A stretch of DNA of 20,449 nt from a virus. Under the pieces are notes generated by a model. The model was not told the origin of the DNA. It worked only from the letters and a program-made list of their open reading frames with translations, and searched no databases. Location of the stretch: UHGV virus genome UHGV-0200630; one strand, given 5' to 3'. Below are positions 1-20,449 of the stretch, piece after piece. Each line of letters opens with the position of its first letter. Position 1 is the stretch's first letter. The position numbers and the translations under genes were made by a program.

Positions 1-78
1 TGGTTTGGCGATTGATCAGATCGCACAATCCGGGCTGAGTTCCCTTTCAGTGATCTACTATTCCGCGCAGCTATTTAG
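1..78. repeat. Left terminal inverted repeat (78 bp), exact reverse complement of 20371-20448
   Basis: Read directly: reverse complement of 20371-20448 equals 1-78 base for base; identity breaks at position 79. Contains three GATC sites (14-17, 19-22, 52-55) and begins 5'-TG. Confidence 0.95.
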
Positions 79-325
79 CAAGAGTTGAACGAACAGTGGT
101 ATAAAGTTTCTGAACTTGAGCGATTTCTTTAAAAACAGGAGTTCCGTCTTCGTGTTGAATACAATTCAGAATCATTCGGTCGTTACGTTCTTCTGTGTTT
201 TCATTTTTGAAATAGAATTCACCGAATTCAGATACGGTCATAGGACGAGCATAGAATTTAAAGCCGTTGATTTCTACTGGTTCGCGAGAAGGCGAAAGAC
301 TTGCTAACATTTCATCGAAATTCAT
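71..325 (-). CDS. Hypothetical protein (84 aa)
   Basis: ORF with ATG at 325-323 and AAGGGA-like SD 8-10 nt upstream; stop codon TAG lies inside the left ITR. No recognisable family. Confidence 0.5.
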   Translation of the reverse strand: MNFDEMLASLSPSREPVEINGFKFYARPMTVSEFGEFYFKNENTEERNDRMILNCIQHEDGTPVFKEIAQVQKLYTTVRSTLAK

Positions 326-361
326 TTTTGTTTCCCTTTGTTGAGTTTTCTTTTATTTATG

Positions 362-388
362 AAAAAGGGAGCGCGAGGCTCCCTTTTG
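362..388 (-). terminator. Intrinsic terminator (bidirectional-looking) after the 105-aa gene
   Basis: Stem GGGAGC (367-372) / GCTCCC (378-383) with 5-nt loop, flanked by A5 (362-366) and TTTTG (384-388); on the minus strand the hairpin is followed by U5. Same stem sequence as the terminator at 18769-18791. Confidence 0.6.
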
Positions 389-706
389 TTATTTCCATTG
401 AAAGAAATATCCGTACATTCTGAAACCTTTGTGGATATATTCAATCATTCCTAAGTTCTTCGCTTCGGTCTCAAAAAATGGACCTTGCAGTCGAACTGTC
501 TGTCCTAATTTGAAATGACAATTAGGTTTTTTCTTCTGTGTTGAAACAATAAAAACGTTCTTATCGTTGAACAGATATTTTTTAATTCGCTTATCTTTGA
601 TGTGTTCGCAACCGTAAGGAACAGTCATTGACTCGGGATTAATCTCGTTAACGTAGATGTCGGCAAGTTCGTCTAATCTGTAAGTATCAAAATCGTGAAT
701 GTTCAT
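389..706 (-). CDS. Hypothetical protein (105 aa)
   Basis: ATG at 706-704 preceded by AAGGAGA with 5-nt spacer; ends directly at the terminator. No recognisable family. Confidence 0.6.
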   Translation of the reverse strand: MNIHDFDTYRLDELADIYVNEINPESMTVPYGCEHIKDKRIKKYLFNDKNVFIVSTQKKKPNCHFKLGQTVRLQGPFFETEAKNLGMIEYIHKGFRMYGYFFQWK

Positions 707-723
707 TTGTTCTCCTTTTGACT

Positions 724-1266
724 TTATTTAGTACCCGCAACACGCTTAACGGTTTTGAATATATCGTCAGAGATTTGATTCCATGAACCCAGAGTTTTTC
801 TTCTGTGTTGATTTTTCTTGAATACAGCAATTAAACGACGGTCTTGCTTTTTAACGTTAGTTTTAATGAGGATCGTTCGAGTTACGCCATCTTTTTTTTG
901 CTTGACAGCTTCAAGATTATTTCTTGATTTCAAGTTAGGAATGTTACCGAATTTGTTCTTTGAACCTCTTACACCAGTTGGAACAAACTTGTTAATTCCT
1001 TTGTTATCATCAATTAACGGAGCAAGATAATCAGCCTGCTTGTCTTTGATGAATATTCTATTTCGTGACCCGTTCTGATCGTATCTGAAACTGAAACCTA
1101 CTGCGTTCTTAGTGAAATTAACTGGTCCATCGACTCGTCTGTTGATTTTTCTTTGCAACTCAACAGAAGCGAGTTTAGACGCTTTGGTTACTTTCTTACT
1201 GAACACGTCAGATTCTTTGATTCGCCATTTTTCAAGGTCTTTCATAACATCTTTTGCTTTTGCCAT
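724..1266 (-). CDS. Highly basic Lys/Arg-rich protein (180 aa), possible DNA-binding or virion-associated protein
   Basis: ATG at 1266-1264 with AGGAG SD (7-nt spacer); TAATG overlap with upstream gene stop (1266-1268). Very high K/R content throughout. Function not recognised. Confidence 0.6.
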   Translation of the reverse strand: MAKAKDVMKDLEKWRIKESDVFSKKVTKASKLASVELQRKINRRVDGPVNFTKNAVGFSFRYDQNGSRNRIFIKDKQADYLAPLIDDNKGINKFVPTGVRGSKNKFGNIPNLKSRNNLEAVKQKKDGVTRTILIKTNVKKQDRRLIAVFKKNQHRRKTLGSWNQISDDIFKTVKRVAGTK

Positions 1267-1463
1267 TAGTTCACTCCTGACATCAGAAGCGTCCCAAATG
1301 TTTTTATCTGTTCTTCGCTGATAAGAATCATTTTAGGTGCTTTAATATCGAAAGCTTGCAGAACAGGAACAGCAACAGTGTTATAAGTTATAGTAACGAG
1401 AAATAGAACAATAAGATAATCTTTAGCGTGTTTTGCCAATGCTTGGAGATATTTCATTTTCAT
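1266..1463 (-). CDS. Small single-pass membrane protein (65 aa), possible lysis-associated (holin-like) protein
   Basis: ATG at 1463-1461 with AGGTGA SD; one hydrophobic helix (DYLIVLFLVTITYNTVAVPVL); overlaps the 3' end of the endonuclease VII gene by 41 nt. Real coding status uncertain. Confidence 0.4.
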   Translation of the reverse strand: MKMKYLQALAKHAKDYLIVLFLVTITYNTVAVPVLQAFDIKAPKMILISEEQIKTFGTLLMSGVN

Positions 1464-1899
1464 ATTTCACCTTTATTTGGTTTGAGTAGACTTTTTCAAG
1501 CTCCTTTTTCGTTTTAAGGTTTGAACCTGTAATAGCTTTCATCTCAGAAAGATTTTTTCGAGAGAACGCCTTCTTTAAATCAGGAATAAGTTGTGGATGC
1601 GTAGGATTGTCTGAGTAGTCTTTTTCAAGATACTGAACAAGATTCTTCAAAAACTCGATGTAGTCAATTTTCCCATCGAGACCCGAACGTTTAAACTGAT
1701 GTTTTATTCTGCCCTCTAGGACGTTTGCTTGAGCGATTAATAATCCTCTGCATCTGCCTGCGTTAGAGCCTGTTAATATATGGTCATGGTCAAGATGGGC
1801 TTTATTAACTTCATGAATCTTTATGCCAGTTAAAGCACAAAGACCTTTTTGCTTTTGAAAGAGTTCTTGCTTATAAATCGGAATCTCTTTTCTTTTCAT
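1423..1899 (-). CDS. Endonuclease VII-like Holliday junction / branched-DNA resolvase (T4 gp49 family), 158 aa
   Basis: Translation contains HLDHDH, GLL..N..EG, KHQFKRSGL.GK.DY.EFL.NL..YL..DY and FSR...SEM, matching T4 endonuclease VII as I recall it. ATGA overlap with upstream gene; AAGAGGA SD. Confidence 0.85.
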   Translation of the reverse strand: MKRKEIPIYKQELFQKQKGLCALTGIKIHEVNKAHLDHDHILTGSNAGRCRGLLIAQANVLEGRIKHQFKRSGLDGKIDYIEFLKNLVQYLEKDYSDNPTHPQLIPDLKKAFSRKNLSEMKAITGSNLKTKKELEKVYSNQIKVKYENEISPSIGKTR

Positions 1900-2180
1900 T
1901 TTCCTCTTAGAACTGCTAGGTCGATATCTAGCTTTGCTGTTCTTCCTTCTAAATTCTTCAAATCAGATTTGACCTCTCGAAATTCATCCTGTTGTCGTGT
2001 TATATCGCTTATAAGCGAAGCATCTTTTGCGTCATTAACGGCTATGCTTTTTTCGATGTCTGAGAAACGTTTCTCAAGGTCAATTCGTTTTTCATTGTTT
2101 GATTTAATTTCGGCATAAACCCAAGCCAAGAAACCTCCTAGAGCACCCAAGATGGAAATGATCAGTGCTATATCGACCAT
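1896..2180 (-). CDS. Membrane-anchored coiled-coil protein (94 aa), candidate i-spanin-like or other lysis/envelope protein
   Basis: N-terminal TM segment (IALIISILGALGGFLAWVYA) followed by charged, heptad-like region; ATG at 2180 with AAGGAGA SD (6-nt spacer). Confidence 0.6.
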   Translation of the reverse strand: MVDIALIISILGALGGFLAWVYAEIKSNNEKRIDLEKRFSDIEKSIAVNDAKDASLISDITRQQDEFREVKSDLKNLEGRTAKLDIDLAVLRGK

Positions 2181-2225
2181 CTTGAATCTCCTTTTTAAAA
2201 GACCTCCTTGTCTTTATTTAGAACG

Positions 2226-5200
2226 TTATTGTTGTTTACTGATAAAGTAAACTGCTCTTGCTGCGGTCGCATGATTCAAGTCAGCACCGTAACTCAAATC
2301 AACAGCTTGTCCCGCATAGATAATGCCTGTACCACCGTTTGAACCACTCATTGCACTGGTAACTGTTCTTACGATTTCTTGACCGTTCGACATATTAATC
2401 CATGCAGTTCCGTAGCCCCAAGCACCACCGGAATAAGTTCTGCCTGAAATCGAAAGGTTTGGAATAGAAATTACTCTGTTCCAGTTAACAGCAGGAATAT
2501 GAACTGTTGTCCACGGATCTATATGACCCATTTTGATAACGTCACCTTCAATTCTGTCAGCGTATACAGTTCCTGTGAAATAACCTGAACCGCCTCTGAT
2601 TTCACCTGCGAAATAACCAGAATCTGCTTGAATGTTACCTCTGATATTAACGTTTTGGAAAGAAGCCCAACCGTCTTTTCTGATTGTCCAACCTTGAGTA
2701 CCACCGGAAGGGAACCAGTTATCAGAAGATATTTCATAAGCAATCTGTGCTGAACCGATCTGAGCATTACCAATTTTCGCAGTAGTAATCGCACCGTTTT
2801 CAATCTTCGCGTTGTTAATAGCACCGTTTTGAATCTTAGCGTTGTTAATAGAAGCATCTGCAATCTGTGCTGAACCGATAGAAGCATTACGAATCATTGC
2901 AGAATCCATATAAACTCTGTTATCAGCGACCATAAACGGAGCAACAGCACCCGCAGGAGTATTGTTATTCGTTATAGCGATTTTATCAGCGTTAAAAACA
3001 ATACTAGACTGTTTTGAACCGTCAGGATTCTTATTAGCCAGCATACTGATACCAGCAACAACACCGTCGGCATTAGTCTGAACTGCCCATTTGCTATTAA
3101 TCGTTCCTGTTAAGTCGTCAACGCTTGCTTTTGATTCTTGACTAACTGTTGCAATAGCTGTGTTTGTTTCAGCTTTCAATTGATTAATTGAACTTGCGGT
3201 TGCTTGTCTATCATCAGCTTGAGTTTTTTCAACTTTCGTAATAGCCGAGTTAAGTTTTCCATCAAAGTTAGATTCTTGAATACTGATAGCCTGATTGATA
3301 GCGCCATTAGTTTCATTAGTAATCTGAGTATGAAGTTCGGTGTTTTTCGTCGTGATAGTCTGATTTAATTCAGTAGTAACTTTTTGCTCGGATGCTGTAA
3401 CTTTCGTATCAGTGTATTTGTTAGCGAGGTCTAATGCTTCATCGATAGCACCATCAACACGTTTATCCAAATCAAGCAAATCGTTTAACTGTTCTTTCAT
3501 ATCGTCAGTCCACGGAATATCCCATTTCATATCGATAAACTTCGATTCTGACCAAGTAATCTGGTCTTGTCCGAATACGTCATACCAAGCTGAACGAACA
3601 TAGAATTGACCATCTTCTAATGGAAAATTATCTAAGAACGGACTTGAACTTGAATAAACGTGAACAATTTCATTAAAACTCTGGTCTTTCGCAATATGAA
3701 CGATTGTGCCTTTGAAGTCAGGAACTTCAGGCTTATTATCGCGTGGGTCATTCCAAGAGCACATCAGCATTCCAGGACCATTCGAAGCTGTGAAACCTTG
3801 AATAGCAGGAGCTTGATTGTTCTTAACAGTAATAACAGCAGGATCTGACTTCATACCAGCGTGACCGTATGCAGTAACAGAAACTTTCAATTCACGACTC
3901 AGACCATTACCCAAGTTCATATTAAAGTCATATACAAAACCTAAGTCTTTAGTCTTGTAAATTACAGGACGCTGACCTTCAATTTTGATTTCGTAATATT
4001 GAAAAACTTCACCGAATGTCTGTAACGTGTCGTCAACATAGAATTTCTGTGCGCTCTGGTCGTCCCAGGCGAATTCAAATTGAGTCTTGTTAGTGGTGTA
4101 TTGATTTTCAACTGCGTTCACTAGGTGCAGTCCTGTAACGACTGGTAAGTTATACATAACCTCAGGGTTAACGTTATTGACATAAACCCAATCTGAACGA
4201 TACACAACACCAGAAGCACAAACACGAATATCAAATTTCTGATTAGGGTCAAGACTCATAATCAAGAAATAATCGCCTGATGTGAAACCTGCTTGAATCC
4301 AAGAGTTCTTACCAGCAAGACTATACTGAATATAATAACCTGCGCGATTATAATCAGGTTCAGACGTCCATTGAACTTTCAGAGTTCTTCCTAAAGCTGT
4401 TTCAGCAACTGCTTTAACTGTCAGATTCTTAGGAGCAATCAGAACAGATTTATTAGGAATGTTGCTTCCTGTGTTATCAGGGTCTTTCGCGTAGTCAAGA
4501 TTGGTATAAACTTCTTCGATATATTCAGAAGCAGTAATAGTAACGATACCAGCAGCACCTTTATTCATCGAACGATCGATATTAGTAATACGCCATAATG
4601 AATTCACAAGTTCCAGTTCAGAGAAATTAACTCTGATAACATCCCAGACCTGTGCGGTATAAGCATCAGCAGTTGAAAAACTAATAACTTGCTTTAACAG
4701 AGATTTGTTACGTTCGATTGAAGCAATTTTATCCAACTGAGATTTTGATTTCACGAATCTGTAACTGATATCTTTAGCGATAATACGTTTATCTTTCGCG
4801 ATTGTTCCATCATTTGTTACGTCAGACGGATAACGCAGAACTTGGTCAGAATAGTCAATCGACGGATCTTGATATTTCACGTTCAGAGTATTGTAATAAT
4901 TCTCAGAACCGCCATCGTTTAAGCTAACAGTACCAGCGTTAATATTATCTTCGTTGAAGTCATATTGAACAACATCAGGTCCATCGATTCTGCATGTTAC
5001 TTTACCGAAAGTCTCTGTGATAATACCGTTAAATGCACCTGCAAGCTGAGTTAAGTTTTCTTTGAATGAACCGTTCGGGTCAGTTGCACCATCAGAAAAT
5101 AAACTGTTCAGTTTTGCATATCGAGCAGCTTCTTTAAAACTATCAAGGTCGATTTTATCAATCTGAATTCCAAGACCGTATCTATCATTTGTTAGATAAT

Positions 5201-5915
5201 CAACAATCTGACTCGGACCGTTGTTCGAGGAAACGCGTTCTCCTGTGTTCAGATCTGTAATCAAACGTCCTCTAACGTCAACAGATACTTGACTGTTAGG
5301 TTGCAGGATATCAGCTTGGTTTTGAAGGTCTGAGTTACGTTTGCGCATAACAACACAACAAGCAGCGATGTTATTACCAGTAGCAGAATCAGGCCAGCCA
5401 GCATCTGAATTTCCTAGATATTTCTGAGCAAGAGTAAAAACGTGACCGTATGGCTTACCAGTTGAGAATTCAACTTCAACATATTGCTGATATTCAGCAG
5501 CGATTGAACCTTTCGGAAGAACACCGTCTTTATAAACGCCATCAAGTAAGATTTTCTGATTATCCATATAAAGGTTTTTGAAGCTATCAACTTCACCTTC
5601 ACAGATTGCAAAGATCTGAACCAAATATGTCGTATCAACGCCAACAGCTTTCCAAACGTTAATCGTACCTGTACGCTGTTCACCATAGATAATAGGAATA
5701 ACACTTGATGGATCTGACGTTGTTCCTAATGTCGTTGCTGTGTCTGTGCTGTTAAATCGGGGAACGTTCTGCGCCATCTGAGTTGACATCAAAGCAGAAA
5801 CAGCAGCAACAGCGACACCAATACCAATTGCCAAAGCAAGAGCAGCACCCGCAGCGTAAGCAGCAGCAGCCGCGGAAGCACCTGCGATAATTGCACCAAT
5901 AGCTACAATAGCCAT
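2226..5915 (-). CDS. Tail tip / host specificity protein, lambda gpJ-like (1229 aa) with atypical hydrophobic N-terminus
   Basis: Strong SD AGGAGA (6-nt spacer). Middle and C-terminal regions (e.g. FMVADNRVYMDSAMIRN..., GTVYADRIEGDVIK) resemble lambda J as I recall it, including fibronectin-III-like stretches. Residues 1-45 are an Ala/Gly/Ile-rich hydrophobic segment. Confidence 0.85.
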   Translation of the reverse strand: MAIVAIGAIIAGASAAAAAYAAGAALALAIGIGVAVAAVSALMSTQMAQNVPRFNSTDTATTLGTTSDPSSVIPIIYGEQRTGTINVWKAVGVDTTYLVQIFAICEGEVDSFKNLYMDNQKILLDGVYKDGVLPKGSIAAEYQQYVEVEFSTGKPYGHVFTLAQKYLGNSDAGWPDSATGNNIAACCVVMRKRNSDLQNQADILQPNSQVSVDVRGRLITDLNTGERVSSNNGPSQIVDYLTNDRYGLGIQIDKIDLDSFKEAARYAKLNSLFSDGATDPNGSFKENLTQLAGAFNGIITETFGKVTCRIDGPDVVQYDFNEDNINAGTVSLNDGGSENYYNTLNVKYQDPSIDYSDQVLRYPSDVTNDGTIAKDKRIIAKDISYRFVKSKSQLDKIASIERNKSLLKQVISFSTADAYTAQVWDVIRVNFSELELVNSLWRITNIDRSMNKGAAGIVTITASEYIEEVYTNLDYAKDPDNTGSNIPNKSVLIAPKNLTVKAVAETALGRTLKVQWTSEPDYNRAGYYIQYSLAGKNSWIQAGFTSGDYFLIMSLDPNQKFDIRVCASGVVYRSDWVYVNNVNPEVMYNLPVVTGLHLVNAVENQYTTNKTQFEFAWDDQSAQKFYVDDTLQTFGEVFQYYEIKIEGQRPVIYKTKDLGFVYDFNMNLGNGLSRELKVSVTAYGHAGMKSDPAVITVKNNQAPAIQGFTASNGPGMLMCSWNDPRDNKPEVPDFKGTIVHIAKDQSFNEIVHVYSSSSPFLDNFPLEDGQFYVRSAWYDVFGQDQITWSESKFIDMKWDIPWTDDMKEQLNDLLDLDKRVDGAIDEALDLANKYTDTKVTASEQKVTTELNQTITTKNTELHTQITNETNGAINQAISIQESNFDGKLNSAITKVEKTQADDRQATASSINQLKAETNTAIATVSQESKASVDDLTGTINSKWAVQTNADGVVAGISMLANKNPDGSKQSSIVFNADKIAITNNNTPAGAVAPFMVADNRVYMDSAMIRNASIGSAQIADASINNAKIQNGAINNAKIENGAITTAKIGNAQIGSAQIAYEISSDNWFPSGGTQGWTIRKDGWASFQNVNIRGNIQADSGYFAGEIRGGSGYFTGTVYADRIEGDVIKMGHIDPWTTVHIPAVNWNRVISIPNLSISGRTYSGGAWGYGTAWINMSNGQEIVRTVTSAMSGSNGGTGIIYAGQAVDLSYGADLNHATAARAVYFISKQQ

Positions 5916-6331
5916 TATTTTCTCCTGTTAAAAATTAATTCAAAATTAAAATCGTTGACGTTTATCAGTTGATATTTATTTTCATGTTCAACTAATGCTC
6001 TATTATTAAAAACGATAGATGCAACGTAATAGACACGGTTTTTATGTTTTTTCTTAATTAAGATAACCGAGCCTGTTTCTATAGTTTCTGATTTCTCAAG
6101 ATGCGTTTCACACGCTTCGAGAACGTTATTAAAACCAGTTAGCTCTTTGCAAATCTTGAGACCTTCAGGAATACTCGTGTATTTGTCTTTTAATTTGTCT
6201 GTGTATTCAGTAGCACAAACAAGGTCGATATATTCAGCAACAAGGATATTACAGTCGTTTTGACCGAAAACGTGTTGCTGATTGATATAGCGGTTAAGTA
6301 ATTTTGATAAGTCAGCTTGAAATTTAAACAT
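5915..6331 (-). CDS. Putative tail tip assembly protein with lambda gpK-like NlpC/P60 cysteine peptidase domain (138 aa)
   Basis: Immediately upstream of the J-like gene with TAATG coupling; GAGGTG SD. Motif FGQNDCNILVAEY resembles the Cys-containing motif of NlpC/P60 (lambda K C-terminal domain); later HxN/His candidates. Functional call is tentative. Confidence 0.55.
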   Translation of the reverse strand: MFKFQADLSKLLNRYINQQHVFGQNDCNILVAEYIDLVCATEYTDKLKDKYTSIPEGLKICKELTGFNNVLEACETHLEKSETIETGSVILIKKKHKNRVYYVASIVFNNRALVEHENKYQLINVNDFNFELIFNRRK

Positions 6332-6362
6332 GTTTCACCTCTGACTTTATTTAGAGCCAAAA

Positions 6363-6386
6363 AAAGACCCCTTGCGGAGTCTTTTT
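6363..6386. terminator. Bidirectional intrinsic terminator-like hairpin
   Basis: A-tract, imperfect GC stem (GACCCC/GGAGTC with TTGC loop), T5 on plus strand and U7 on minus strand; sits directly 3' of the 158-aa gene. Confidence 0.5.
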
Positions 6387-6388
6387 AA

Positions 6389-6865
6389 TTAATCACTTGA
6401 TGTCAAATCAACAACACCAGAAACAACAGGACCACCATCAACACTCAGTGTCATTGTCAGACCTTGAACTTCTGATTCACCGCCATTATGAACAGCGCTT
6501 GACAAGAAGCCGTTATAAACTTTTGCAACACCCAGTTTTTTAGTAGCATCAATCCAATAAACGATTTTAAACTGACCACGTTTACCATCTTCCGCAAGCT
6601 TAATCAGAACATCATGAACGCTTTCTGGAATATAGTTAACGGTCAAGTCGATATCAGGAACAGAGCCACGACCAACCAGTTTACGGGAGTATTTGTGAGA
6701 GAAGTTAGGAGCTGTAATAACTTCGCGTTCAATACCCGTAGAAGGGAATGCACCAGTTTCAGGAATTTCAACAAACTTTTCTGAATTCAGATCGGTGTTT
6801 GCAATTTCTGAGTTATAGAACACACTGACGTAAGAGCCAGCAAAAATATCAAATTTGTCTGCCAT
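6389..6865 (-). CDS. Putative abundant virion structural protein (158 aa), possibly tail tube/distal tail-like
   Basis: Isolated between two hairpins (6904-6926 and 6363-6386), suggesting separate high expression; AGGAAA SD. Gly/Val/Ser-rich sequence that I read as beta-rich. Family not recognised from sequence alone. Confidence 0.6.
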   Translation of the reverse strand: MADKFDIFAGSYVSVFYNSEIANTDLNSEKFVEIPETGAFPSTGIEREVITAPNFSHKYSRKLVGRGSVPDIDLTVNYIPESVHDVLIKLAEDGKRGQFKIVYWIDATKKLGVAKVYNGFLSSAVHNGGESEVQGLTMTLSVDGGPVVSGVVDLTSSD

Positions 6866-6903
6866 TTTTAATTTCCTATTTGAGTTAATATAGTTTATTT
6901 AGC

Positions 6904-6926
6904 AAAGGGGATTTCTCCCCTTTTTG
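6904..6926 (+). terminator. Hairpin with T-tract on plus strand (antisense to operon) between fiber gene and 158-aa gene
   Basis: GGGGA (6907-6911) / TCCCC (6916-6920), loop TTTC, followed by TTTTTG on plus strand; only UUUGC on minus strand. Confidence 0.4.
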
Positions 6927-9900
6927 TTATTTAGCTTCAAGTTCTTTAACGCGAGCACTTAATTCCTTGATAGCATTAACCAGCAACGCGTTTACAGCAG
7001 CAGAGTTAACACCAAGAATTTCGTCAGGTCCGAAAGAACTAACAGCTTCTGGTAATACTTCTTTCAGTTCTTGAGCAATAATACCTGCTTCACGAACTTC
7101 GAATGAATATTCAGTTTTGACTAAATCAGATTTCTTATCGTATACGTAACCAGTAAGTTTCTCGACTTTATCAACTGCGTTTTCAATTTCTTCAAAGTTC
7201 GATTTCAGACGTTTATCAGAAGTGCTAACCCATTGGATCGCATTTGCTGTTCCATTACCGAGGAATAGATAGTCTGCACCACCAATGTGAAGTGCAGCCT
7301 CGGGAGCAGAACTACCCGGATTATAAATGTCCATCGCAGCACCGTATTCTGTGCCCCAATGAACATGTTTCCAGATATTAATACATTTATCACGAGTCTG
7401 AGCTTCAACAATCATTCCCGCAGGACGATCACGCCACGCTGACCACTGCGGCCAACCGTCAACGACACCTTGAATCATCGCATTGCTTGCCCCGGTTCTA
7501 ACGTTTCCAACATAAACACCGCGAGACTCATTATGGGTGTTAATCGTAATTGACCGATCAATTGTCAAACCAGCTGTGTTAAAGGTTGCGATTTGAATAC
7601 CATTAGTAAAAATGCTTAAGTTTCCGTCCGTAACTTGTCGAATACCTGTATCGTTATCACCAAACGCGATTGAGTTTCCACCTAGTACGTTGTCCGTGTT
7701 AATACCAAAACTTGTTAAACGATTTGTTTCAACAGAAGGAGTATTAATTTTTCCAGGAACAGCAAAACGACCATCGATATCAAATTCATAATTAGCCATT
7801 TTACCGAACGTCGATTCTTCTTTCGTCCCAACACGAAGAATTCCTTTGCCCCATGAATTAGCTGGTCCTCTAATAGTTCCTAATTCAACAACAGTAGAGA
7901 ATCCGTGTCCTACGGAAACAGAGTTCATCGAATATCCGGGATAATAATCACTTTCACCAGCAACTGCTCCGAAGTTAATCTGCATAGGAGCATTTTGTCT
8001 CCATTGATTAGCGTAAGCATGATCATTGGTTGCTGCCCATCTTGCACCATCAATTTGAATTGTATTATGCTGAATATCCATCGCGGTATTAGTACCAGTC
8101 TGAACCGTCACGGATCCGTTAGTTCTAAGAGTAACACCAGATGACGTAGAGAAATCATTTCTCATATTCTGAGACCAGACAATATCGAGATTCTCACTTG
8201 TCTTGCCAAGAATCCAGGTATTATTGCGACCGTCCATATTGCCAGACATATAACTTGCCTGATTCGACGCAGGAATATTCAACTGAATAGCATTAGATTC
8301 GCCGTTGACAGAAACACCACTTGCAAGATTCAATCGACCATTGGTGTTTAATGAACCCATCCAATATTCAGGAGTATCACCATGAAACCAACATATAGAG
8401 TTATCCAGCCTATCGTCAGGATGATTAGCCATTGCCAACTCATGATAAATGGATCCAGCACCAACGGCTCTAACTTTTCTTAAATGATTTGATTGTTGCT
8501 CAGGAGTGTTCCAGTCGGGTAAGCTTTCCGAGTCATACCATCCGTAAGGCTTATTATTATAAATCGTTTTATAGAAACTTGCAGGGCCAGCAACACCAAG
8601 ACCTTCTTTAGTATCAATATAAGTTCTGCCTGAACCTCTCAGATAATGATTATATTTTCCACCATTAACTAATCCGAAATAAGTCGTGGCGTCACCAATG
8701 TTATTACCGTCGGTTGTCGTATCGATATTAATTAATGAATAACCTTCAGGAGCCATCAGATTCGAATCACCATCATCACTTCTGAAACGGAAATGAGTTT
8801 TTCTATTAAAGTAGTTTTCAGATCCTGCAATAGAAGCTGTTACAACGTTATTTGAATAGAAGTTTAACCATCCGTCTTCTCTCCATTTAAAACCAGTGTC
8901 GGAATCACCAATCGCGATAGAGTTTAAACCCAGTGAATTTCCAACGGCAAAGTTGCTTGCAACGGACATTAAAGGAGTTGTTACTGCATCAGTGATTCTA
9001 GCTTGACCTGAAATATCAATTGACATTCCTCTGCCTGTTTTTCCCCAAGTCATGGTCATTAGATCTAATGCGTCGGTTCCTTCGTTAGCATCACGACGAA
9101 ATAACAGTCGATCATCCGTATCCGTTGCGTATGCAATTTGATGAATAGTCTTTGAAGTTCTGCCGTGGTTTTCAATACTCAGAACATCACCGTTATTACC
9201 AGCAGGTGTAACTTTCAAAGTTCCTGCGTATACATTACCAGCAGCATGAACAGAAGGAACAGTTAAGTCGCCAGTCATCGTGTCGCCAGCTTTATTAACT
9301 TTGGTGTCAATCATGTCTTTCAGAGTCTGATTATCAACAGTCAAACGGTCATTAACTGCTTTAATCTTTTCGTCAGCATCAGCTTTATTCGCATCAACTT
9401 TCGTATTAATAGCCGTGTCGTTCTGGTCAACTTTTGAATTCAGATTATCAACGCGAGTGTTAATAGCAGCGTCGTTAGCATCAACTTTCTGTTCGAGTTT
9501 CGTCAGGTCAGCACTTGAACCTGTTTGAACTTTGCTGATTTCAGAATCAACGTAATCTTTACGCGTAGCGCTATCAGGAGCAACAGGAGCAGCAGGCAAA
9601 GATAACTGACCATTACCGTTAAGCACGAAGTCAGAACTCTCTCCTGTAGCTTTTCCTTTCGCTACCGTAACACGAAGTTCACCTTTAGAGTCTGTCTGAG
9701 CAGGAGAACTAATACGTGCTTTTGCTTTGTCGTGTTCATCAGCAAAAACAATATCGCTTTTATCAAGATTTTTTAAAGTCAGATTAGAATCGGATTCAAT
9801 ATCACTTGCTTTAATTTTTCCAGTAAAGGTCTGACCGCCTTCAACAACAGCATCAGCACCATTACCGATGTTAATAACAGCGTCACCGAATTTAGTAAAA

Positions 9901-10010
9901 ATCTTTTTATCGGCTAAGTTAATAGCGATTTCACCATCAAGCATGTTTTTCGCTTCTGGCTTTCTTCCGGCGACGTCTGTTCTATAATGTTTAACTTTAT
10001 TATTTGCCAT
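6927..10010 (-). CDS. Tail fiber protein with C-terminal intramolecular chaperone / Peptidase S74 autoproteolytic domain (1027 aa)
   Basis: C-terminal ~97 aa (SDKRLKSN...GIIAQELKEVLPEAV...LVNAIKELSARVKELE) match the S74 intramolecular chaperone domain of endosialidases and L-shaped tail fibers. Upstream KAGDTMTGDLTV fiber motif and Asn/Asp-rich repeats. Weak SD; start probably coupled to upstream gene. Confidence 0.85.
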   Translation of the reverse strand: MANNKVKHYRTDVAGRKPEAKNMLDGEIAINLADKKIFTKFGDAVINIGNGADAVVEGGQTFTGKIKASDIESDSNLTLKNLDKSDIVFADEHDKAKARISSPAQTDSKGELRVTVAKGKATGESSDFVLNGNGQLSLPAAPVAPDSATRKDYVDSEISKVQTGSSADLTKLEQKVDANDAAINTRVDNLNSKVDQNDTAINTKVDANKADADEKIKAVNDRLTVDNQTLKDMIDTKVNKAGDTMTGDLTVPSVHAAGNVYAGTLKVTPAGNNGDVLSIENHGRTSKTIHQIAYATDTDDRLLFRRDANEGTDALDLMTMTWGKTGRGMSIDISGQARITDAVTTPLMSVASNFAVGNSLGLNSIAIGDSDTGFKWREDGWLNFYSNNVVTASIAGSENYFNRKTHFRFRSDDGDSNLMAPEGYSLINIDTTTDGNNIGDATTYFGLVNGGKYNHYLRGSGRTYIDTKEGLGVAGPASFYKTIYNNKPYGWYDSESLPDWNTPEQQSNHLRKVRAVGAGSIYHELAMANHPDDRLDNSICWFHGDTPEYWMGSLNTNGRLNLASGVSVNGESNAIQLNIPASNQASYMSGNMDGRNNTWILGKTSENLDIVWSQNMRNDFSTSSGVTLRTNGSVTVQTGTNTAMDIQHNTIQIDGARWAATNDHAYANQWRQNAPMQINFGAVAGESDYYPGYSMNSVSVGHGFSTVVELGTIRGPANSWGKGILRVGTKEESTFGKMANYEFDIDGRFAVPGKINTPSVETNRLTSFGINTDNVLGGNSIAFGDNDTGIRQVTDGNLSIFTNGIQIATFNTAGLTIDRSITINTHNESRGVYVGNVRTGASNAMIQGVVDGWPQWSAWRDRPAGMIVEAQTRDKCINIWKHVHWGTEYGAAMDIYNPGSSAPEAALHIGGADYLFLGNGTANAIQWVSTSDKRLKSNFEEIENAVDKVEKLTGYVYDKKSDLVKTEYSFEVREAGIIAQELKEVLPEAVSSFGPDEILGVNSAAVNALLVNAIKELSARVKELEAK

Positions 10011-10022
10011 TTTCTTTATCCG

Positions 10023-11048
10023 TTAAAATACTCCTGCGTCTAAGGTTTCTCCTAACGCTACACAATTAATCTCTAATGGCGTTGGTTTATTACTTGGAGA
10101 ATAGACTTCTTTGCCTTTGACCTTGACAGAAGTTGAGTTAATTTCATTACTATTTAGAGCCAAGATTTCACCTTGTGGCGCAGAAATCTTTTTACGAACG
10201 TTCAGATATTCCTGAATAGTCAAAGATCCTTTGAGTTCTCCACCAGTAATAGGCAAAGCATTAATATCTTCAGGAGTTGGACGTTCAAGTTCTGTATAGA
10301 CTTTGACCCACGGAGATTCAGTAACAGTTTCACCGCTTTGTTGTTTGTTTCTGATTCTGATGCTTGGATTACCGACTGACGAACCAATAAGCTCCCAACC
10401 TTGACCATCAGGATGCTGAATAGCCATAGCAGACGTGCCAGAGTTATAAGGGTTATCGCTGTTTGTTGCATCGACTGTTACACATCTGTTACCAGTTAAT
10501 AATCCTAAGTCTTTAACGCCTGCGATTTCTTCTGTACCAGCACCAATACCATAATCGCCAACGTTTAACGGAACTGAGAATTCAGCAAAACCTGTAAACA
10601 ACTGACCATCAGGAGAAAGATTAAAAGTTGTTGTAACGACTGAGTTAGCCGAACCTGATGTTTCTTTCTTCGTTACATAAGCATTAAAAATATGATAAAG
10701 ACCAGCATCATTATCTTTCTTTGTTTCTCCATCGATAACATAAAGACTTCTGAATCTAAGGAGTTTCTTTTCCATAAGAGCTTCATCAAGCAACTGATAA
10801 ACTGGGTCAGAACTGTCTTCAAATAAGCTTATTGAAGTGTCGTTAATTGTTACGTCACCTGAAAGTTTCGTTGTGAAATCGGTTCTGTAATCTTCTAGTG
10901 TCTGAACTTCTTTTCTAAATCCGATAACAGGGAATGCAGCCAGTTTATCAGTGCTTACATAACCTGGGTCGTTATATCCTGGGATTTCAACGATTAGCGG
11001 ATTAACTGAAACTCTGACGTTATTTCCTACAAAAATATCGTTTGTCAT
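10023..11048 (-). CDS. Virion structural protein (341 aa), possibly major tail or fiber-associated protein
   Basis: Long ORF in the structural block, 7 nt downstream of the preceding stop. N-terminal half has a pattern reminiscent of major tail proteins; C-terminal part (PTPEDINALPITGGELKGSLTI) resembles fiber attachment regions. Family unresolved. Confidence 0.65.
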   Translation of the reverse strand: MTNDIFVGNNVRVSVNPLIVEIPGYNDPGYVSTDKLAAFPVIGFRKEVQTLEDYRTDFTTKLSGDVTINDTSISLFEDSSDPVYQLLDEALMEKKLLRFRSLYVIDGETKKDNDAGLYHIFNAYVTKKETSGSANSVVTTTFNLSPDGQLFTGFAEFSVPLNVGDYGIGAGTEEIAGVKDLGLLTGNRCVTVDATNSDNPYNSGTSAMAIQHPDGQGWELIGSSVGNPSIRIRNKQQSGETVTESPWVKVYTELERPTPEDINALPITGGELKGSLTIQEYLNVRKKISAPQGEILALNSNEINSTSVKVKGKEVYSPSNKPTPLEINCVALGETLDAGVF

Positions 11049-11055
11049 TTTAGTC

Positions 11056-11454
11056 TCACATTAAGTATTCGAAAGTTAAAATTATTTGTGCGCTAACATG
11101 ACCATTTGATGCTTCACTATCATAATCAGTGAAGCTCGAACTTGGATAAATCTTATCGATTTTAAATGGGATAAGTTTTTCATGATTAGCTTTAATAGAA
11201 ATTAAGTCGTAAACGGCTTTGTGAACGCCTGTTTCGCTTTTCTCTGAGAAAATATCAATCGTAATACTAAGAACACTTGCAAGTTTCGATTGCAAACCGA
11301 TTCGCGTATATTCTTCTGTCATTCCTGGAATCATTACTTGAACAGGTTCTTTAACACCAGTTGTGAAAGCGTTTTTGACGTATTTCAGATTAAGTTCTTT
11401 AACGATTATTTCTTCCAGAGCGCGTTTAATTCCTAAACGTGGCAGATTAGTCAT
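11056..11454 (-). CDS. Putative head-tail connector/neck protein (132 aa from ATG at 11454; ORF open to TTG at 11532)
   Basis: ATG at 11454-11452 preceded by AGGAGA (about 9-nt spacer) and overlapping the stop of the upstream gene (ATGACTAA). The longer ORF-track version would start at TTG with no SD. Function inferred from position only. Confidence 0.5.
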   Translation of the reverse strand: MTNLPRLGIKRALEEIIVKELNLKYVKNAFTTGVKEPVQVMIPGMTEEYTRIGLQSKLASVLSITIDIFSEKSETGVHKAVYDLISIKANHEKLIPFKIDKIYPSSSFTDYDSEASNGHVSAQIILTFEYLM

Positions 11455-11743
11455 AGAATGATGTCTCCTGTTCGCCTTTAAATGCCAGATAACAATTAGC
11501 AAGTCCTGAACCATCATTAACAAGATACGCAATGGTATACAGAATCTCGTTTAATAGAACTTCATCTTCTTGCTTAACTTTATTGATATCAGCGGTTATA
11601 TAGATTGTCTCGCTTACTTGTCCGTTATCGTTGTTAATCTCAATTTCAACAATACCGAGTTCATCAGAATCGTTAATTTTGATTTTCTGTCCGAAACGAG
11701 TTAAGAAAGACTGTTTTTGTTTTTCTGAATATGGAAAAATCAT
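11447..11743 (-). CDS. Putative head completion / connector protein (98 aa)
   Basis: ATG at 11743 with AAGGAGA SD (5-nt spacer), immediately downstream of the capsid-gene terminator. Acidic small protein; function inferred from position only. Confidence 0.55.
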   Translation of the reverse strand: MIFPYSEKQKQSFLTRFGQKIKINDSDELGIVEIEINNDNGQVSETIYITADINKVKQEDEVLLNEILYTIAYLVNDGSGLANCYLAFKGEQETSFYD

Positions 11744-11777
11744 GTTGTCTCCTTTTTATTATATTTAGTCCAGAAAC

Positions 11778-11803
11778 GAAAAAAGGACTCCCGAAGGAGT
11801 CCT
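11778..11803 (-). terminator. Strong intrinsic terminator after the capsid gene(s)
   Basis: 8-bp stem AGGACTCC (11784-11791) / GGAGTCCT (11796-11803) with 4-nt loop, followed on the minus strand by U6 (11778-11783). Confidence 0.8.
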
Positions 11804-11823
11804 CTGATTATTCAGCAGTTTCA

Positions 11824-11853
11824 GCTTTCGCTTTCGCTTTTGCTTTTGCTTTT
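11824..11853. repeat. Five tandem hexamers GCTTTY (RAAAGC on the coding strand) in the capsid 3'UTR
   Basis: Read directly: gctttc gctttc gctttt gctttt gctttt, beginning immediately after the stop codon at 11855-11857 and ending before the terminator. Confidence 0.8.
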
Positions 11854-11854
11854 C

Positions 11855-12067
11855 TTAGGCTTGTTTTTCGTGCAGGAACAGACGATCATCAGCACAAACT
11901 TTCCAATCGATATCAGCCCAAACGCGAGGAACGATAGCGCCTTTGTTACGGTAAGTTGTGTCGTCTAGGTCAAGAGCAAGACCTTCCCACTCAGCTACGG
12001 TTACAGCAGAGAAGTCACCAGAGATAACCTGACCTTCTTTAACAAGACCGGAACCGATAAACATCAT
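11855..12067 (-). CDS. Small capsid-associated ORF (70 aa) overlapping the capsid gene 3' end in the +1 frame; separate protein or frameshift extension
   Basis: ATGATG at 12067-12062 lies 29 nt inside the capsid ORF in the +1 frame; only a weak GGGCGGA SD. Shares the terminator at 11778-11803 with the capsid gene. Confidence 0.45.
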   Translation of the reverse strand: MMFIGSGLVKEGQVISGDFSAVTVAEWEGLALDLDDTTYRNKGAIVPRVWADIDWKVCADDRLFLHEKQA

Positions 12068-13760
12068 GTCCGCCCAGTTTGTTCAGGTCGTCGATGATAT
12101 AACCAGCAACACCAGCGTCACGCAGAGTGGTTTTCAAATCACCTTCAAGAGCAGCAGCCATCAAATATTTGAACTTGTCCATTGCTACGCCGTCGCCTTT
12201 AGCTTTAGCAGCTTCAACAACGAATTCTTTGTAGGTCATTCCCATCTGTTTTGCTACTAACTGAGCAACGATAGACTGAGGAGCTTTTGCGTCGGTAATA
12301 GAACCGAACATCAGACCTTCCAGTTTAGCGCGTGAGAAATTCACGATATGGTCAGAAATGAACGCACCCAGATTAGGCAGAGTCAACAGAGCTTGACGAG
12401 AAATCGGGTTACCACCAGTAAATGTCTTAGGCATAAACTGAATGTTTTCGAATTTGCTTTCGCCTTCTGGAGATTCACCGTTTTCATCAACGAAACCGAA
12501 TGCATCAACACTTGATTTTGTCTGCTTAGGAACAGAAATCGGAGTAGTCAGACCAGTCAGGAAGTTAACTCCCAGCTTATCAGCAACAGTGTCTTTCAAC
12601 AGCATTTCAACGAATGAATCATAACGCTGAACAGTTTCTTGTACTGCGGAAACAGTTGATACAGTGTTAATAGCGCGTTTGCCTTGCAGAGCACTAACTG
12701 GCATATAGATACCTTGAGAAACGTTAGCACCGCGCATCAGACGCTTACGGGACATTTCTTGAGTATATTCAGCAGCAGCACCGCGAACAGCTTTACCATT
12801 CATCATAGAGCGAACAGCATCGCCAAGGTCGAATTTATTTTCCAGAGTTTGTTTAGTATCTTTAGTCATGTTGCGAATCACCGTTGCAGATTTATTAGGT
12901 TTAATAGAGCGTTTGAATTGACGTGCGGTCATGCCTTTAGCGATAGCGCTTGCAACGTCTTTCTGTGCTACTTTGTAGCGTTGTGCGATTTCAAGAATTT
13001 CTTCCGCTTCTTCTTCGCGTTCTTCTTCTGTCAGTTCGTCACCAGCAGGAACAGCAGCAGGAGCGTCATCAGTTTTTTCAACAGCAGAATCACCAGCGTT
13101 TTCATTTTCAACGACTACTTCTTCCAGAATTTCTTCACGCTTTGCACGATCTTCATCGGACAGCATTTCAATTTCATCGATAGTCATTTCTGCCAGTTCA
13201 TCTTTAGTCATTTCATCAATACGTTTCATTCGAGTACCTTTGTTAAGTTTGTTTGTTGTATCTGTATTTAGTAGTCTTCCCAAACCGACTTTATCGTCAG
13301 CAGGAACAGTGACGAAAGAAATTTCATATGGTGCCCATTTCGTAACAATAAGATTGTCGCCTTCTAAGTGATATTCATTAATGTCATATCCGAAAGAGAT
13401 TTTACTAATTGTTCCTTCTTGAACTTTTGCACCGATTTCTTTAGCTAATTCACCGTGTTGACTGAATTGGACTTTTGCTCGTCCTATTTTGTCTTCATCG
13501 ATTCGAACAGAATCAGGAATAACGATTCCCAAGTGTTTATCAAAATCATGGTTAAACAGCAAAGCAGCACCGTTATTAATTCGGGTCAAGTCAGCGTTAT
13601 GTGAGCCGTCATGAACGAGAATTTCATTAACAGTAATGTTTTGACCGTATTCATCCTGAATCTGTCTTTCAACAGGAGTTTCAGAACTGAACGCAATTTC
13701 AAAAACACCATCAACAGAATCAATACCCTGAACTGTGTAATCGCGCTTAAGTTTTAGCAT
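12039..13760 (-). CDS. Prohead protease (HK97 gp4 / Peptidase S78-like) fused to scaffold-like acidic linker and putative HK97-fold major capsid domain (573 aa)
   Basis: N-terminal ~170 aa carry protease-like motifs (LLFNHD....GIV, ISFGY). Residues ~180-270 are an acidic, helical Glu-rich linker (delta/scaffold-like). C-terminal ~300 aa are of capsid-domain size, directly after portal and before a strong terminator. AGAGGA SD. Confidence 0.75.
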   Translation of the reverse strand: MLKLKRDYTVQGIDSVDGVFEIAFSSETPVERQIQDEYGQNITVNEILVHDGSHNADLTRINNGAALLFNHDFDKHLGIVIPDSVRIDEDKIGRAKVQFSQHGELAKEIGAKVQEGTISKISFGYDINEYHLEGDNLIVTKWAPYEISFVTVPADDKVGLGRLLNTDTTNKLNKGTRMKRIDEMTKDELAEMTIDEIEMLSDEDRAKREEILEEVVVENENAGDSAVEKTDDAPAAVPAGDELTEEEREEEAEEILEIAQRYKVAQKDVASAIAKGMTARQFKRSIKPNKSATVIRNMTKDTKQTLENKFDLGDAVRSMMNGKAVRGAAAEYTQEMSRKRLMRGANVSQGIYMPVSALQGKRAINTVSTVSAVQETVQRYDSFVEMLLKDTVADKLGVNFLTGLTTPISVPKQTKSSVDAFGFVDENGESPEGESKFENIQFMPKTFTGGNPISRQALLTLPNLGAFISDHIVNFSRAKLEGLMFGSITDAKAPQSIVAQLVAKQMGMTYKEFVVEAAKAKGDGVAMDKFKYLMAAALEGDLKTTLRDAGVAGYIIDDLNKLGGHDVYRFRSC

Positions 13761-13776
13761 TACCAGTCCTCTGTTG

Positions 13777-13806
13777 GAGCGTCTTTCGACGCTCTTTGTT
13801 TTTCTG
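13777..13806 (+). terminator. Hairpin with plus-strand T-tract between portal and capsid genes
   Basis: 7-bp stem GAGCGTC/GACGCTC with TTTC loop (GAAA on the mRNA strand), followed by TTTGTTTTTCTG on the plus strand; no U-tract on the minus strand. May be an antisense terminator or mRNA processing/stability element. Confidence 0.4.
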
Positions 13807-13819
13807 AATGTATTTAGTG

Positions 13820-15370: not shown

Positions 15371-15861
15371 GATGGATTCGTGAACCTCGCTTTAATAGTA
15401 ACAATCGGAGATTTACCGTTTGCCATTTGTTCTGACTTAATCAGATTTGCTAAGTTAGCTAAAAGTCGTTTTCGAGCCATAAGCAGCGAATCAAGCGTTT
15501 CATAAACGAATGATTTACCGTTAATACTCATTTGTTGAATAGCTTCTTCGTTACTTGTCAGACGATACTGAATAACTGTATCGATATCGTTAATCATTTC
15601 TCTGAGTTGTTCTCTTTTCGTTTTTGAAACGAATGGTGATTTCACTTTGATAATGCTGTTACTGATAAGCGCACCTTCATAGAGAACAACAACAGAAAAA
15701 GTTCCTTCGATAAAATCTGATGTGTCCACCGAGATATTCGCTGGACAATCAGTTTGAGAAAACAATTTAGTTTCAGTTGAGCCTATGGAGACTGTTGCAC
15801 CTTCAGGATTATAAACAGCGAGTTTTTCACCGATGTAAATTTCTGAATTTGATTTTTGCAT
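15367..15861 (-). CDS. Head-tail joining protein with gpW-like C-terminal domain (164 aa)
   Basis: Located between large terminase and portal, as gpW is in lambda. C-terminal ~60 aa (EQLREMINDIDTVIQYRL...GKSFVYETLDSLLMARKRLLANLANL) resemble the gpW fold pattern; extra ~90-aa N-terminal domain. AAGGAGA SD. Confidence 0.6.
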   Translation of the reverse strand: MQKSNSEIYIGEKLAVYNPEGATVSIGSTETKLFSQTDCPANISVDTSDFIEGTFSVVVLYEGALISNSIIKVKSPFVSKTKREQLREMINDIDTVIQYRLTSNEEAIQQMSINGKSFVYETLDSLLMARKRLLANLANLIKSEQMANGKSPIVTIKARFTNPS

Positions 15862-15881
15862 TGAGTTCTCCTTTCTTATAT

Positions 15882-18763: not shown

Positions 18764-18768
18764 CAAAA

Positions 18769-19193: not shown

Positions 19194-19249
19194 GCAGTTA
19201 TCCAGTAATCATTATTATCCAGATCTGAAAAATAATATTGTGAGCGTAG

Positions 19250-20448: not shown

Positions 20449-20449
20449 A

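What the first reader, a model, noticed from the sequence alone, without database searches (positions are those of the whole stretch)
1..78. GATC (Dam site) enrichment and TGATCAG motif in the terminal repeat
Three GATC sites occur within the first 55 bp of the repeat (14-17, 19-22, 52-55), including TGATCAG, whereas the expectation for this length is well under one. Dam-methylation-sensitive clusters of this kind are known at phage pac sites, transposon ends and origins, so the termini may be methylation-regulated cleavage or recognition sites.
Basis: partly seen in the sequence, partly recalled or inferred. Interest (0 to 1): 0.45.

Follow-up and report, generated by a model that had tools for sequence, protein, structure and literature searches.

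The report
Insertion-sequence ends, not phage termini
The GATC-rich "terminal repeat" is the left end of a known E. coli insertion sequence (ISEc33) left as a stub at both ends of an assembly contig that covers only part of a prophage, so it is ordinary and not a phage genome end.

Summary
GATC sits at 14-17, 19-22 and 52-55, TGATCAG at 13-19, and all are mirrored in a perfect 78-nt inverted repeat at the other end. No 55- or 78-nt stretch of the interior has more than two GATC. The interior is GATC-poor (34 observed, 71-90 expected).

Bases 1-75 and 20374-20449 match the left end of ISEc33, a 1153-bp IS630-family insertion sequence, without mismatch. Each stub is followed by TA and sits in a CTAG target. 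Near-identical E. coli prophages have both sites empty and continue past them. The window is therefore an internal 20.3-kb piece of a ~34-kb prophage lying between two inverted ISEc33 copies.

Other assemblies with the same two junctions keep only 25-26 or 47-52 IS bases. The repeat length is set by the assembler, not by biology.

The GATC cluster belongs to the IS. Four of its five GATC lie in the first 110 nt, and they are kept in 89-99% of 72 related left ends, inside a block that is conserved throughout. Dam control of the IS, as in IS10 or IS50, is possible but untested. No paper in the searched library links IS630 to Dam.

The parts
1..75 (-). Stub of the ISEc33 (IS630 family) left end. 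The IS outer tip is at 75 and IS nucleotide 75 is at position 1. The transposase ATG would lie 27 nt beyond position 1.
   Evidence: 0 mismatches over 75 nt to ISEc33 in E. coli 0H26 (L002). RefSeq annotates the adjacent gene there as 'IS630-like element ISEc33 family transposase'.
76..78 (.). TA target-site duplication (76-77) plus the G of the CTAG target (78). Because the target is palindromic, these 3 bases extend the apparent inverted repeat from 75 to 78 nt.
   Evidence: The empty site in L015 reads aacagcaCTAGcaagag.
14..22 (.). Double Dam site GATCAGATC (IS nt 54-62), inside the 17-nt near-palindrome GCGAT-N7-ATCGC at window 8-24.
   Evidence: Retained in 99% and 94% of 72 unique related left ends.
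52..55 (.). Single GATC at IS nt 21-24, just inside the terminal inverted repeat of the IS.
   Evidence: Retained in 96% of 72 related left ends.
71..325 (-). Chimeric ORF of 84 aa: a prophage gene (102 aa in MS 115-1) truncated by the IS, with its last codons and stop coming from the TA and the IS.
   Evidence: The same exact protein is found on 11 contigs of other assemblies.
79..20370 (-). Internal 20.3-kb structural module of an E. coli prophage. It encodes a lambda-type gpA terminase, a lambda-family portal, a prohead protease-capsid fusion, tail fibre and tail tip proteins, and an endonuclease VII.
   Evidence: 99.99% identical to the ybiT/ldtB prophage of E. coli MS 115-1. Pfam matches.
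19885..20391 (+). Chimeric ORF of 168 aa: the N-terminal 164 aa of a 246-aa prophage gene next to a retron Ec67-type RT gene, truncated by the second IS copy.
   Evidence: The same exact protein is found on 9 contigs of other assemblies.
20371..20373 (.). C of the CTAG target (20371) plus the TA target-site duplication (20372-20373) of the second insertion.
   Evidence: The empty site in L011 and L004 reads cagagaCTAGatgttg.
20374..20449 (+). Stub of a second ISEc33 left end, 76 nt, with the outer tip at 20374, in inverted orientation relative to the first. Its GATC sites are at 20394, 20427 and 20432.
   Evidence: 0 mismatches over 76 nt to ISEc33.

Best explanation
Two copies of the insertion sequence ISEc33 (IS630 family, 1153 bp) sit in inverted orientation, left ends facing inward. 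They occupy two different CTAG sites 20.3 kb apart inside a ~34-kb E. coli prophage. ISEc33 is multi-copy, so short-read assembly could not pass through it. The contig stops a k-mer's length into each copy, leaving 75 and 76 nt of the same IS end in opposite orientation. Together with the palindromic CTA/TAG target, these stubs look like a perfect 78-nt terminal inverted repeat.

The three GATC sites belong to the IS left end. That end comprises the terminal inverted repeat, a strongly conserved subterminal block and the 5' untranslated region of the transposase gene. In the Dam-positive hosts where this IS subfamily lives the sites will be methylated.

Shown: the identity of the repeat, the target sites, the empty sites, the dependence of repeat length on the assembly, and the conservation of the GATC sites. 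Inferred: that both copies lie on one molecule, and the assembler k value. Only hypothesised: that methylation state tunes transposase binding or expression after replication, as in IS10 and IS50.
For: - Window 1-82 is 100% identical to the region just upstream of the ISEc33 transposase gene in many E. coli chromosomes and plasmids. 1305 of 5426 complete genomes carry a match, with a median of 2 and up to 10 places per genome.
- Both window ends match the IS left end with 0 mismatches over 75 and 76 nt.
- The two ends of native ISEc33 are alike only over 11 of 11 terminal bases plus a few more. The 78-nt repeat therefore needs two left ends, which means two copies.
- Both junctions are TA inside CTAG. 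Near-identical prophages have the sites empty and continue beyond them.
- In the complete genome of E. coli MS 115-1 the same prophage, 99.99% identical over window 76-20376, spans about 34 kb between ybiT and ldtB.
- The two chimeric junction ORFs occur in independent metagenome assemblies. There the contigs are 20350 and 20410 nt long and end after 25-26 or 47-52 IS bases, against 75-76 here.
- One contig (L037) reads through the left junction into a complete ISEc33 whose 343-aa transposase has a DDE_3 domain.
- The terminase is of the lambda gpA type. Neither the Pfam scan of 10 of the window's proteins nor the RefSeq annotation of the twin prophage shows a protein-primed polymerase or terminal protein.
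Against: - No contig or complete genome that I could reach shows both IS copies in full on one molecule.
- The exact junctions were absent from IMG/VR, the JGI metagenome collection, the GTDB representative genomes and 5426 complete E. coli genomes.
- The one read-through contig (L037) leaves the IS into a glycosyltransferase gene that lies 1.36 Mb from the prophage in a related strain. Either the lineage is rearranged or that scaffold is chimeric.
- The assembler and its k value for this window are unknown to me. The fit to k of about 79 is an inference.
Confidence: 0.93

Rival explanations
1. One reading: the 78-nt repeat is a true terminal inverted repeat of a linear 20.4-kb phage genome. 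The GATC cluster is a Dam-sensitive cleavage, packaging or replication site.
For: There is a perfect inverted repeat at the very ends of the window. The local GATC excess is real. The host has Dam.
Against: - The repeat is identical to an IS end.
- Relatives continue past both 'ends'.
- The repeat length differs between assemblies of the same DNA.
- The window lacks the integrase, lysis and early genes present in the 34-kb prophage.
- The terminase is lambda gpA-type. No protein-primed replication gene appears in the Pfam scan of 10 of the window's proteins or in the RefSeq annotation of the twin prophage.
- Only one TGATC(A/G) hexamer is present, not a P1-pac-like array.
Confidence: 0.01
2. 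The two inverted ISEc33 copies and the 20.3 kb between them form a working composite transposon that can move the prophage structural module. On this view the inward-facing GATC-rich left ends are 'inside ends' whose use is suppressed by methylation, as in Tn5 and Tn10.
For: The inverted arrangement of two identical IS ends is the arrangement found in Tn5 and Tn10. Composite IS630 transposons have been built experimentally (Tenzen and Ohtsubo 1991, cited from my own knowledge). L037 links the left junction through a full IS to a distant chromosomal gene.
Against: - Both junctions sit at the original prophage positions with matching empty sites in relatives. The segment itself has therefore not moved.
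- The two insertions are simply explained as independent hits on 2 of about 21 CTAG sites in this stretch.
- The L037 linkage can be a scaffolding error across a 1.15-kb repeat.
Confidence: 0.05
3. The GATC sites in the IS left end have nothing to do with Dam. They are conserved only because they lie in a transposase-binding or promoter block in which every base is constrained.
For: - The whole 75-nt left end is 83-96% conserved among apparently intact relatives whose transposases are only 64-90% identical.
- Retention of the GATC 4-mers (89-99%) ranks only in the top 5-39% of all 4-mers of the left end, so it is not exceptional.
- Total GATC in the IS equals expectation.
- No consensus promoter overlaps the sites.
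- No paper in the searched library links IS630 to Dam.
Against: - Four of the five GATC cluster in 110 nt (p about 0.014).
- The GATCnGATC pair matches the arrangement in the Dam-sensitive IS50 inside end (sequence seen; its Dam sensitivity is from Yin et al. 1988).
- Every host of this subfamily that I found is Dam-positive.
- Methylated adenines in a protein-binding site usually change binding.
Confidence: 0.6

Closest known systems
ISEc33 / IS630 (IS630-Tc1-mariner superfamily insertion sequences of Enterobacterales)
   Same: 75 and 76 nt are identical to the ISEc33 left end. Insertion is at TA within CTAG. The terminal sequence is AATAGCTGCGC. The full element is 1153 bp with a 343-aa DDE_3 transposase, seen in L002 and L037.
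   Different: Nothing differs in the sequence. The window holds only the stubs and not the transposase gene. Two copies happen to face each other across a prophage module.
Contig-end repeats produced when de Bruijn graph assemblers stop at multi-copy repeats, a known source of false 'ITR, complete genome' calls for viral contigs
   Same: The repeat lies exactly at the contig ends. Its length differs between assemblies of the same DNA (25-26, 47-52 and 75-76 IS bases). The contig is an incomplete piece of a larger prophage.
   Different: The junctions themselves are real biology: two genuine IS insertions. Only their reading as genome termini is artefactual.
Dam-regulated IS ends: IS10 (Tn10), IS50 (Tn5), IS903
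   Same: GATC sites lie in the transposase-proximal end of an IS in a Dam-positive host. The GATCnGATC pair within TTGATCAGATC is also present in the IS50 inside end CTGTCTCTTGATCAGATCT.
   Different: These belong to a different IS family (IS4/IS5 type versus IS630/Tc1). In ISEc33 the pair lies 54-62 nt from the tip, not in the terminal 19 bp. No promoter overlap was found and there is no experimental evidence for a Dam effect.
Phage P1 pac site
   Same: Contains the hexamer TGATCA/G. The host has Dam.
   Different: P1 pac has seven such hexamers in two clusters inside pacA and is cut by PacA/PacB (from my own knowledge). Here there is one hexamer, it lies in an IS, and the phage has a lambda gpA-type terminase.

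Membership tests
ISEc33 / IS630 family insertion sequence (end fragment) | Nucleotide identity to the catalogued element | tested here: met
   75/75 and 76/76 nt are identical to the element annotated by RefSeq as ISEc33.
ISEc33 / IS630 family insertion sequence (end fragment) | TA target duplication, with a preference for CTAG | tested here: met
   The empty sites read cagagaCTAGatgttg and aacagcaCTAGcaagag. The filled sites read CTA-IS and IS-TAG.
ISEc33 / IS630 family insertion sequence (end fragment) | DDE_3 (Tc1/IS630-type) transposase with N-terminal HTH domains next to the end | tested here: met
   The transposase is not in the window. In L037 the same junction continues into a 343-aa protein with HTH_23, HTH_29, HTH_32 and DDE_3 domains. 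RefSeq annotation appears.
ISEc33 / IS630 family insertion sequence (end fragment) | Short terminal inverted repeats at the two IS ends | tested here: met
   In the complete copy of L002 the first 11 nt (AATAGCTGCGC) are identical at both ends, plus 4 further matches.
Terminal inverted repeat of a linear phage genome (protein-primed phages such as phi29, PRD1, Cp-1) | The repeat lies at the physical ends of the genome | tested here: not met
   Near-identical prophages continue beyond both positions. The repeat length varies with the assembly.
Terminal inverted repeat of a linear phage genome (protein-primed phages such as phi29, PRD1, Cp-1) | Family B protein-primed DNA polymerase and a terminal protein are encoded | tested here: not met
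   Neither appears in the Pfam scan of 10 of the window's proteins (not every ORF scanned) or in the RefSeq annotation of the 99.99% identical prophage.
Dam-regulated IS end (IS10 / IS50 / IS903 type) | GATC overlapping the -10 or -35 element of the transposase promoter | tested here: inconclusive
   The consensus scan found no sigma-70-like promoter pointing toward the transposase gene. IS promoters are often weak, so absence from a consensus scan does not settle the question.
Dam-regulated IS end (IS10 / IS50 / IS903 type) | GATC inside the transposase-binding end sequence | tested here: inconclusive
   The GATC sites lie at IS nt 21-24, 54-57 and 59-62 in a block conserved at 90% or more. 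The transposase footprint for ISEc33 is unknown to me.
Dam-regulated IS end (IS10 / IS50 / IS903 type) | Transposition or transposase expression changes in dam-minus hosts | not testable with these tools
   This needs an experiment. No report was found in the searched library.
P1-type pac site | Array of about seven TGATC(A/G) hexamers flanking the cut site, inside the small terminase gene | tested here: not met
   One TGATCAG is present (13-19). The other two GATC sit in AGATCG and TGATCT. The sequence is IS DNA and the terminase is gpA-type.

The most novel reading that the evidence does not exclude
The conserved GATC set in the left end of the enterobacterial IS630 subfamily is a Dam sensor. 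The set comprises one site next to the terminal repeat, a GATCnGATC pair in a 17-nt near-palindrome that resembles the Dam-sensitive IS50 inside end, and a fourth site in codons 2-3 of the transposase gene. On this reading it limits transposase binding or expression to the hemimethylated state just after replication. That would extend replication-coupled control to a bacterial member of the Tc1/mariner superfamily, where it has not been reported.
Probability: 0.2. Interest if true: 0.35.

Novelty: already known. Interest (0 to 1): 0.1.

Why it matters
As biology it matters little. It is a catalogued insertion sequence inserted twice in a common E. coli prophage.

Its practical value is as a caution. 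A contig bounded by two inverted copies of a multi-copy IS shows a perfect terminal inverted repeat, and repeat-based completeness rules could score it as a complete linear viral genome. Here it is only 60% of a probably defective prophage.

The one open scientific thread is whether the conserved GATC sites in IS630-family left ends make transposition responsive to Dam methylation. That can be tested with standard genetics.

Tried and rejected
- **Single insertion in a circular phage genome, with the IS's own terminal repeats collapsed by the assembler.** Rejected. Native ISEc33 ends share only about 11-17 nt, and the two junctions have two different empty sites.
- **Restoring a circle by joining the two flanks at one CTAG.** Rejected for the same reason. 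Relatives continue into other prophage DNA on both sides.
- **Exact junction searches** in IMG/VR, the JGI metagenome contigs, the GTDB representative genomes and complete E. coli genomes found nothing. The junctions were found only through exact look-up of the chimeric junction ORFs.
- **Contrast between Dam-plus and Dam-minus hosts for the GATC sites.** Not possible. All close relatives (64% or more amino-acid identity) are in Enterobacterales or Aeromonas. The hits listed from other phyla are mostly IS-sized lone contigs, which I take to be contamination, and the next plasmid relative is at 26% identity.
- **Promoter scan of the IS left end** found no consensus promoter toward the transposase gene.
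- **RNA fold of the left end.** The minimum-energy and consensus folds pair IS nt 37-46 with 90-99, covering the ribosome-binding site. The fold is no more stable than shuffled sequence (z = -0.45), and the pairs are too conserved to show covariation.
- **Literature searches** for IS630 or ISEc33 with Dam, GATC or methylation found nothing relevant.

Full report
**Observation.** The first 78 bases of the window are the perfect reverse complement of 20371-20448. GATC occurs at 14-17, 19-22 and 52-55, and at the mirror positions 20394, 20427 and 20432. TGATCAG is at 13-19.

The whole window has 40 GATC, against 84 +/- 8.5 in dinucleotide-preserving shuffles. The interior (79-20370) has 34, against 71 by base composition or 90 by a second-order Markov estimate, a ratio of 0.38. 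No interior stretch of 55 or 78 nt holds more than two sites. The probability of three or more in 55 nt at the interior rate is about 1e-4. The rest of the window actually avoids GATC.

**What the repeat is.** A megablast of the window against phage records matched only the repeat itself, on Salmonella chromosomes. Against complete E. coli genomes, bases 1-82 match at up to 100%. 1305 of 5426 genomes carry a match, with a median of 2 and up to 10 places per genome, on chromosomes and plasmids.

In every case inspected the match lies just upstream of a gene annotated 'IS630-like element ISEc33 family transposase'. In E. coli 0H26 the element is 1153 bp. Window position 1 lies 27 nt upstream of the transposase ATG, and window position 75 is the outer tip of the IS. 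Both window ends match this left end with no mismatch, over 75 nt on the left and 76 nt on the right.

The two ends of native ISEc33 share only AATAGCTGCGC plus a few more bases. A 78-nt inverted repeat therefore cannot come from one copy. It needs two copies in inverted orientation, each with its left end facing the interior of the window.

**The junctions are genuine insertions into a larger prophage.** IMG/VR holds contigs that are 98.9-99.98% identical to the interior.
- At the right junction they read cagagaCTAGatgttg and continue into other DNA.
- At the left junction they read aacagcaCTAGcaagag and continue likewise.
- In the window the same sites read CTA-[IS] and [IS]-TAG. This is a TA duplication inside CTAG, the target known for IS630 (Tenzen et al. 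1990, cited from my own knowledge).
- The palindromic target adds three bases to each arm, which explains why the apparent repeat is 78 nt rather than 75.

In the complete genome of E. coli MS 115-1 the same prophage is 99.99% identical over window 76-20376. There it occupies about 34 kb between ybiT and ldtB and also carries a serine recombinase, a lysis-type glycoside hydrolase, a TIR-domain gene and a retron Ec67-type reverse transcriptase.

The window is therefore the structural module only. It encodes a lambda gpA-type terminase, a lambda-family portal, a prohead protease-capsid fusion, a tail fibre, a tail tip protein and an endonuclease VII. No protein-primed polymerase or terminal protein appears in that scan of 10 of the window's proteins or in the RefSeq annotation of the twin prophage.

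**The repeat length is set by assembly.** The IS insertions create two chimeric ORFs, at 71-325 and 19885-20391. Exact look-up of these proteins found them on 11 and 9 contigs of other public assemblies of human gut metagenomes.

| Assembly | Contig length | IS bases kept per end |
|---|---|---|
| Logan | 20350 nt (plus shorter contigs) | 25-26 |
| ENA scaffolds | 20410 nt (plus shorter contigs) | 47-52 |
| This window | 20449 nt | 75 and 76 |

Those contigs stop inside the IS, as the window does, with the IS part always a perfect match. Adding the three target bases gives about 29, 50-55 and 78-79. These values fit overlaps of k or k-1 for k = 31, 55 and 79. The k values are my inference.

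One short scaffold (L037) reads through the left junction into a complete ISEc33 with a 343-aa HTH/DDE_3 transposase. This shows that a whole element lies beyond the stub. It leaves the IS into a glycosyltransferase gene that lies 1.36 Mb from the prophage in a related complete genome. That is either an IS-mediated rearrangement in that sample or a scaffolding error across the repeat. I could not decide between them.

**The GATC cluster.** It is a property of the IS left end.
- The complete element has five GATC (4.4 expected), at IS nt 21, 54, 59, 107 and 875. Four of the five lie in the first 110 nt (permutation p about 0.014).
- In an alignment of 15 left ends from Escherichia, Shigella, Salmonella, Klebsiella, Pantoea, Yersinia and Aeromonas, sites 1 and 2 are present in every apparently intact copy. 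Sites 3 and 4 are lost only in the Aeromonas-type element and in two unannotated, probably decayed copies.
- In 72 unique left ends from species-representative genomes and plasmids the four sites are retained in 96, 99, 94 and 89%.
- The whole block is conserved too. The first 75 nt are 83-96% identical among apparently intact relatives whose transposases are only 64-90% identical. The GATC 4-mers rank only in the top 5-39% of all 4-mers of the left end. Conservation therefore shows that the left end is an important cis-acting region. It does not single out GATC.
- The pair at IS nt 54-62 lies in a 17-nt near-palindrome, GCGAT-CTGATCA-ATCGC. It shares TTGATCAGATC with the IS50 inside end (sequence seen in a Tn5 primer), whose use is inhibited by Dam methylation (Yin et al. 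1988, cited in PMC3347997).
- I found no consensus promoter toward the transposase gene.
- I found no paper in the searched library linking IS630 or ISEc33 to Dam.
- I found no relatives in Dam-less hosts that would allow a contrast.

**Mechanism.** With high confidence, two real ISEc33 insertions plus assembly breakage at a multi-copy repeat produce a false terminal inverted repeat. The GATC sites are methylatable positions in the IS left end. With low confidence (about 0.2), their methylation state modulates transposase binding or expression, by analogy with IS10 and IS50. The alternative, that they are simply part of a fully constrained binding or promoter block, is more likely on present evidence.

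**Verdict.** The reading as phage termini is refuted. The element is already catalogued, so interest is low. The case is a useful warning for completeness calls based on terminal repeats.

Noticed in passing
window 79-20370: The prophage interior avoids GATC (34 observed versus 90 Markov-expected, ratio 0.38) and GGCC (3 versus 8.6, ratio 0.35). CTAG, the IS630 target, occurs 19 times in the window, and the two insertion sites were two further CTAGs.
   Followed up: partly
window ~12060 (ORFs 12039-13760 and 11855-12067, minus strand): One extra T (TTT versus TT in E. coli MS 115-1) splits the prohead protease-capsid fusion gene, 634 aa in MS 115-1, into 573 + 70 aa. This is either a real frameshift that makes the prophage defective or a sequencing error.
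   Followed up: partly
window ~16796-16800; L016 16291-17411: In E. coli MS 115-1 the terminase gene of the same prophage is interrupted by an IS3-family element. The window has the terminase intact. The IMG/VR draft contigs of that genome (L011, L012) break exactly there, which is another contig break at an IS.
   Followed up: partly
L037 (ENA KOST15-1 scaffold_6097) 294-1496: The left junction continues through a complete ISEc33 into a beta-1,6-N-acetylglucosaminyltransferase gene. In E. coli 2021CK-01361 that gene lies 1.36 Mb from the prophage. This is either an IS-mediated rearrangement or a chimeric scaffold.
   Followed up: partly
L002 3977-4039 (ISEc33 nt 37-99); only IS nt 37-46 = window 30-39 lies in the window: The predicted RNA fold pairs CUCAG..CCGG (IS nt 37-46) with CCGG..CUGAG (IS nt 90-99), which covers the ribosome-binding site of the transposase gene. 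This resembles the fold-back inhibition of read-through transcripts in IS10 and IS50. The fold is no more stable than shuffled sequence (z = -0.45), and the pairs are too conserved to show covariation.
   Followed up: partly
L016 7929-11945 (E. coli MS 115-1, outside the window, next to the right junction): The complete prophage carries a TIR-domain gene and a retron Ec67-family reverse transcriptase/endonuclease. The right-hand ISEc33 copy truncates the 246-aa gene immediately upstream of the retron region.
   Followed up: no
window 359-395 and 18757-18793: Two 86%-complementary copies of a G+C-rich hairpin flanked by A and T runs (GGGAGC...GCTCCC). They look like bidirectional intrinsic terminators at gene-cluster boundaries.
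   Followed up: no
window 11774-11820: A 47-nt stretch is 92% identical to a segment of T4-like coliphage genomes annotated as small outer capsid or capsid-and-scaffold protein. In addition, window 11855-13337 (capsid gene) is 77% identical to the 141-kb Escherichia phage DCP80.
   Followed up: no
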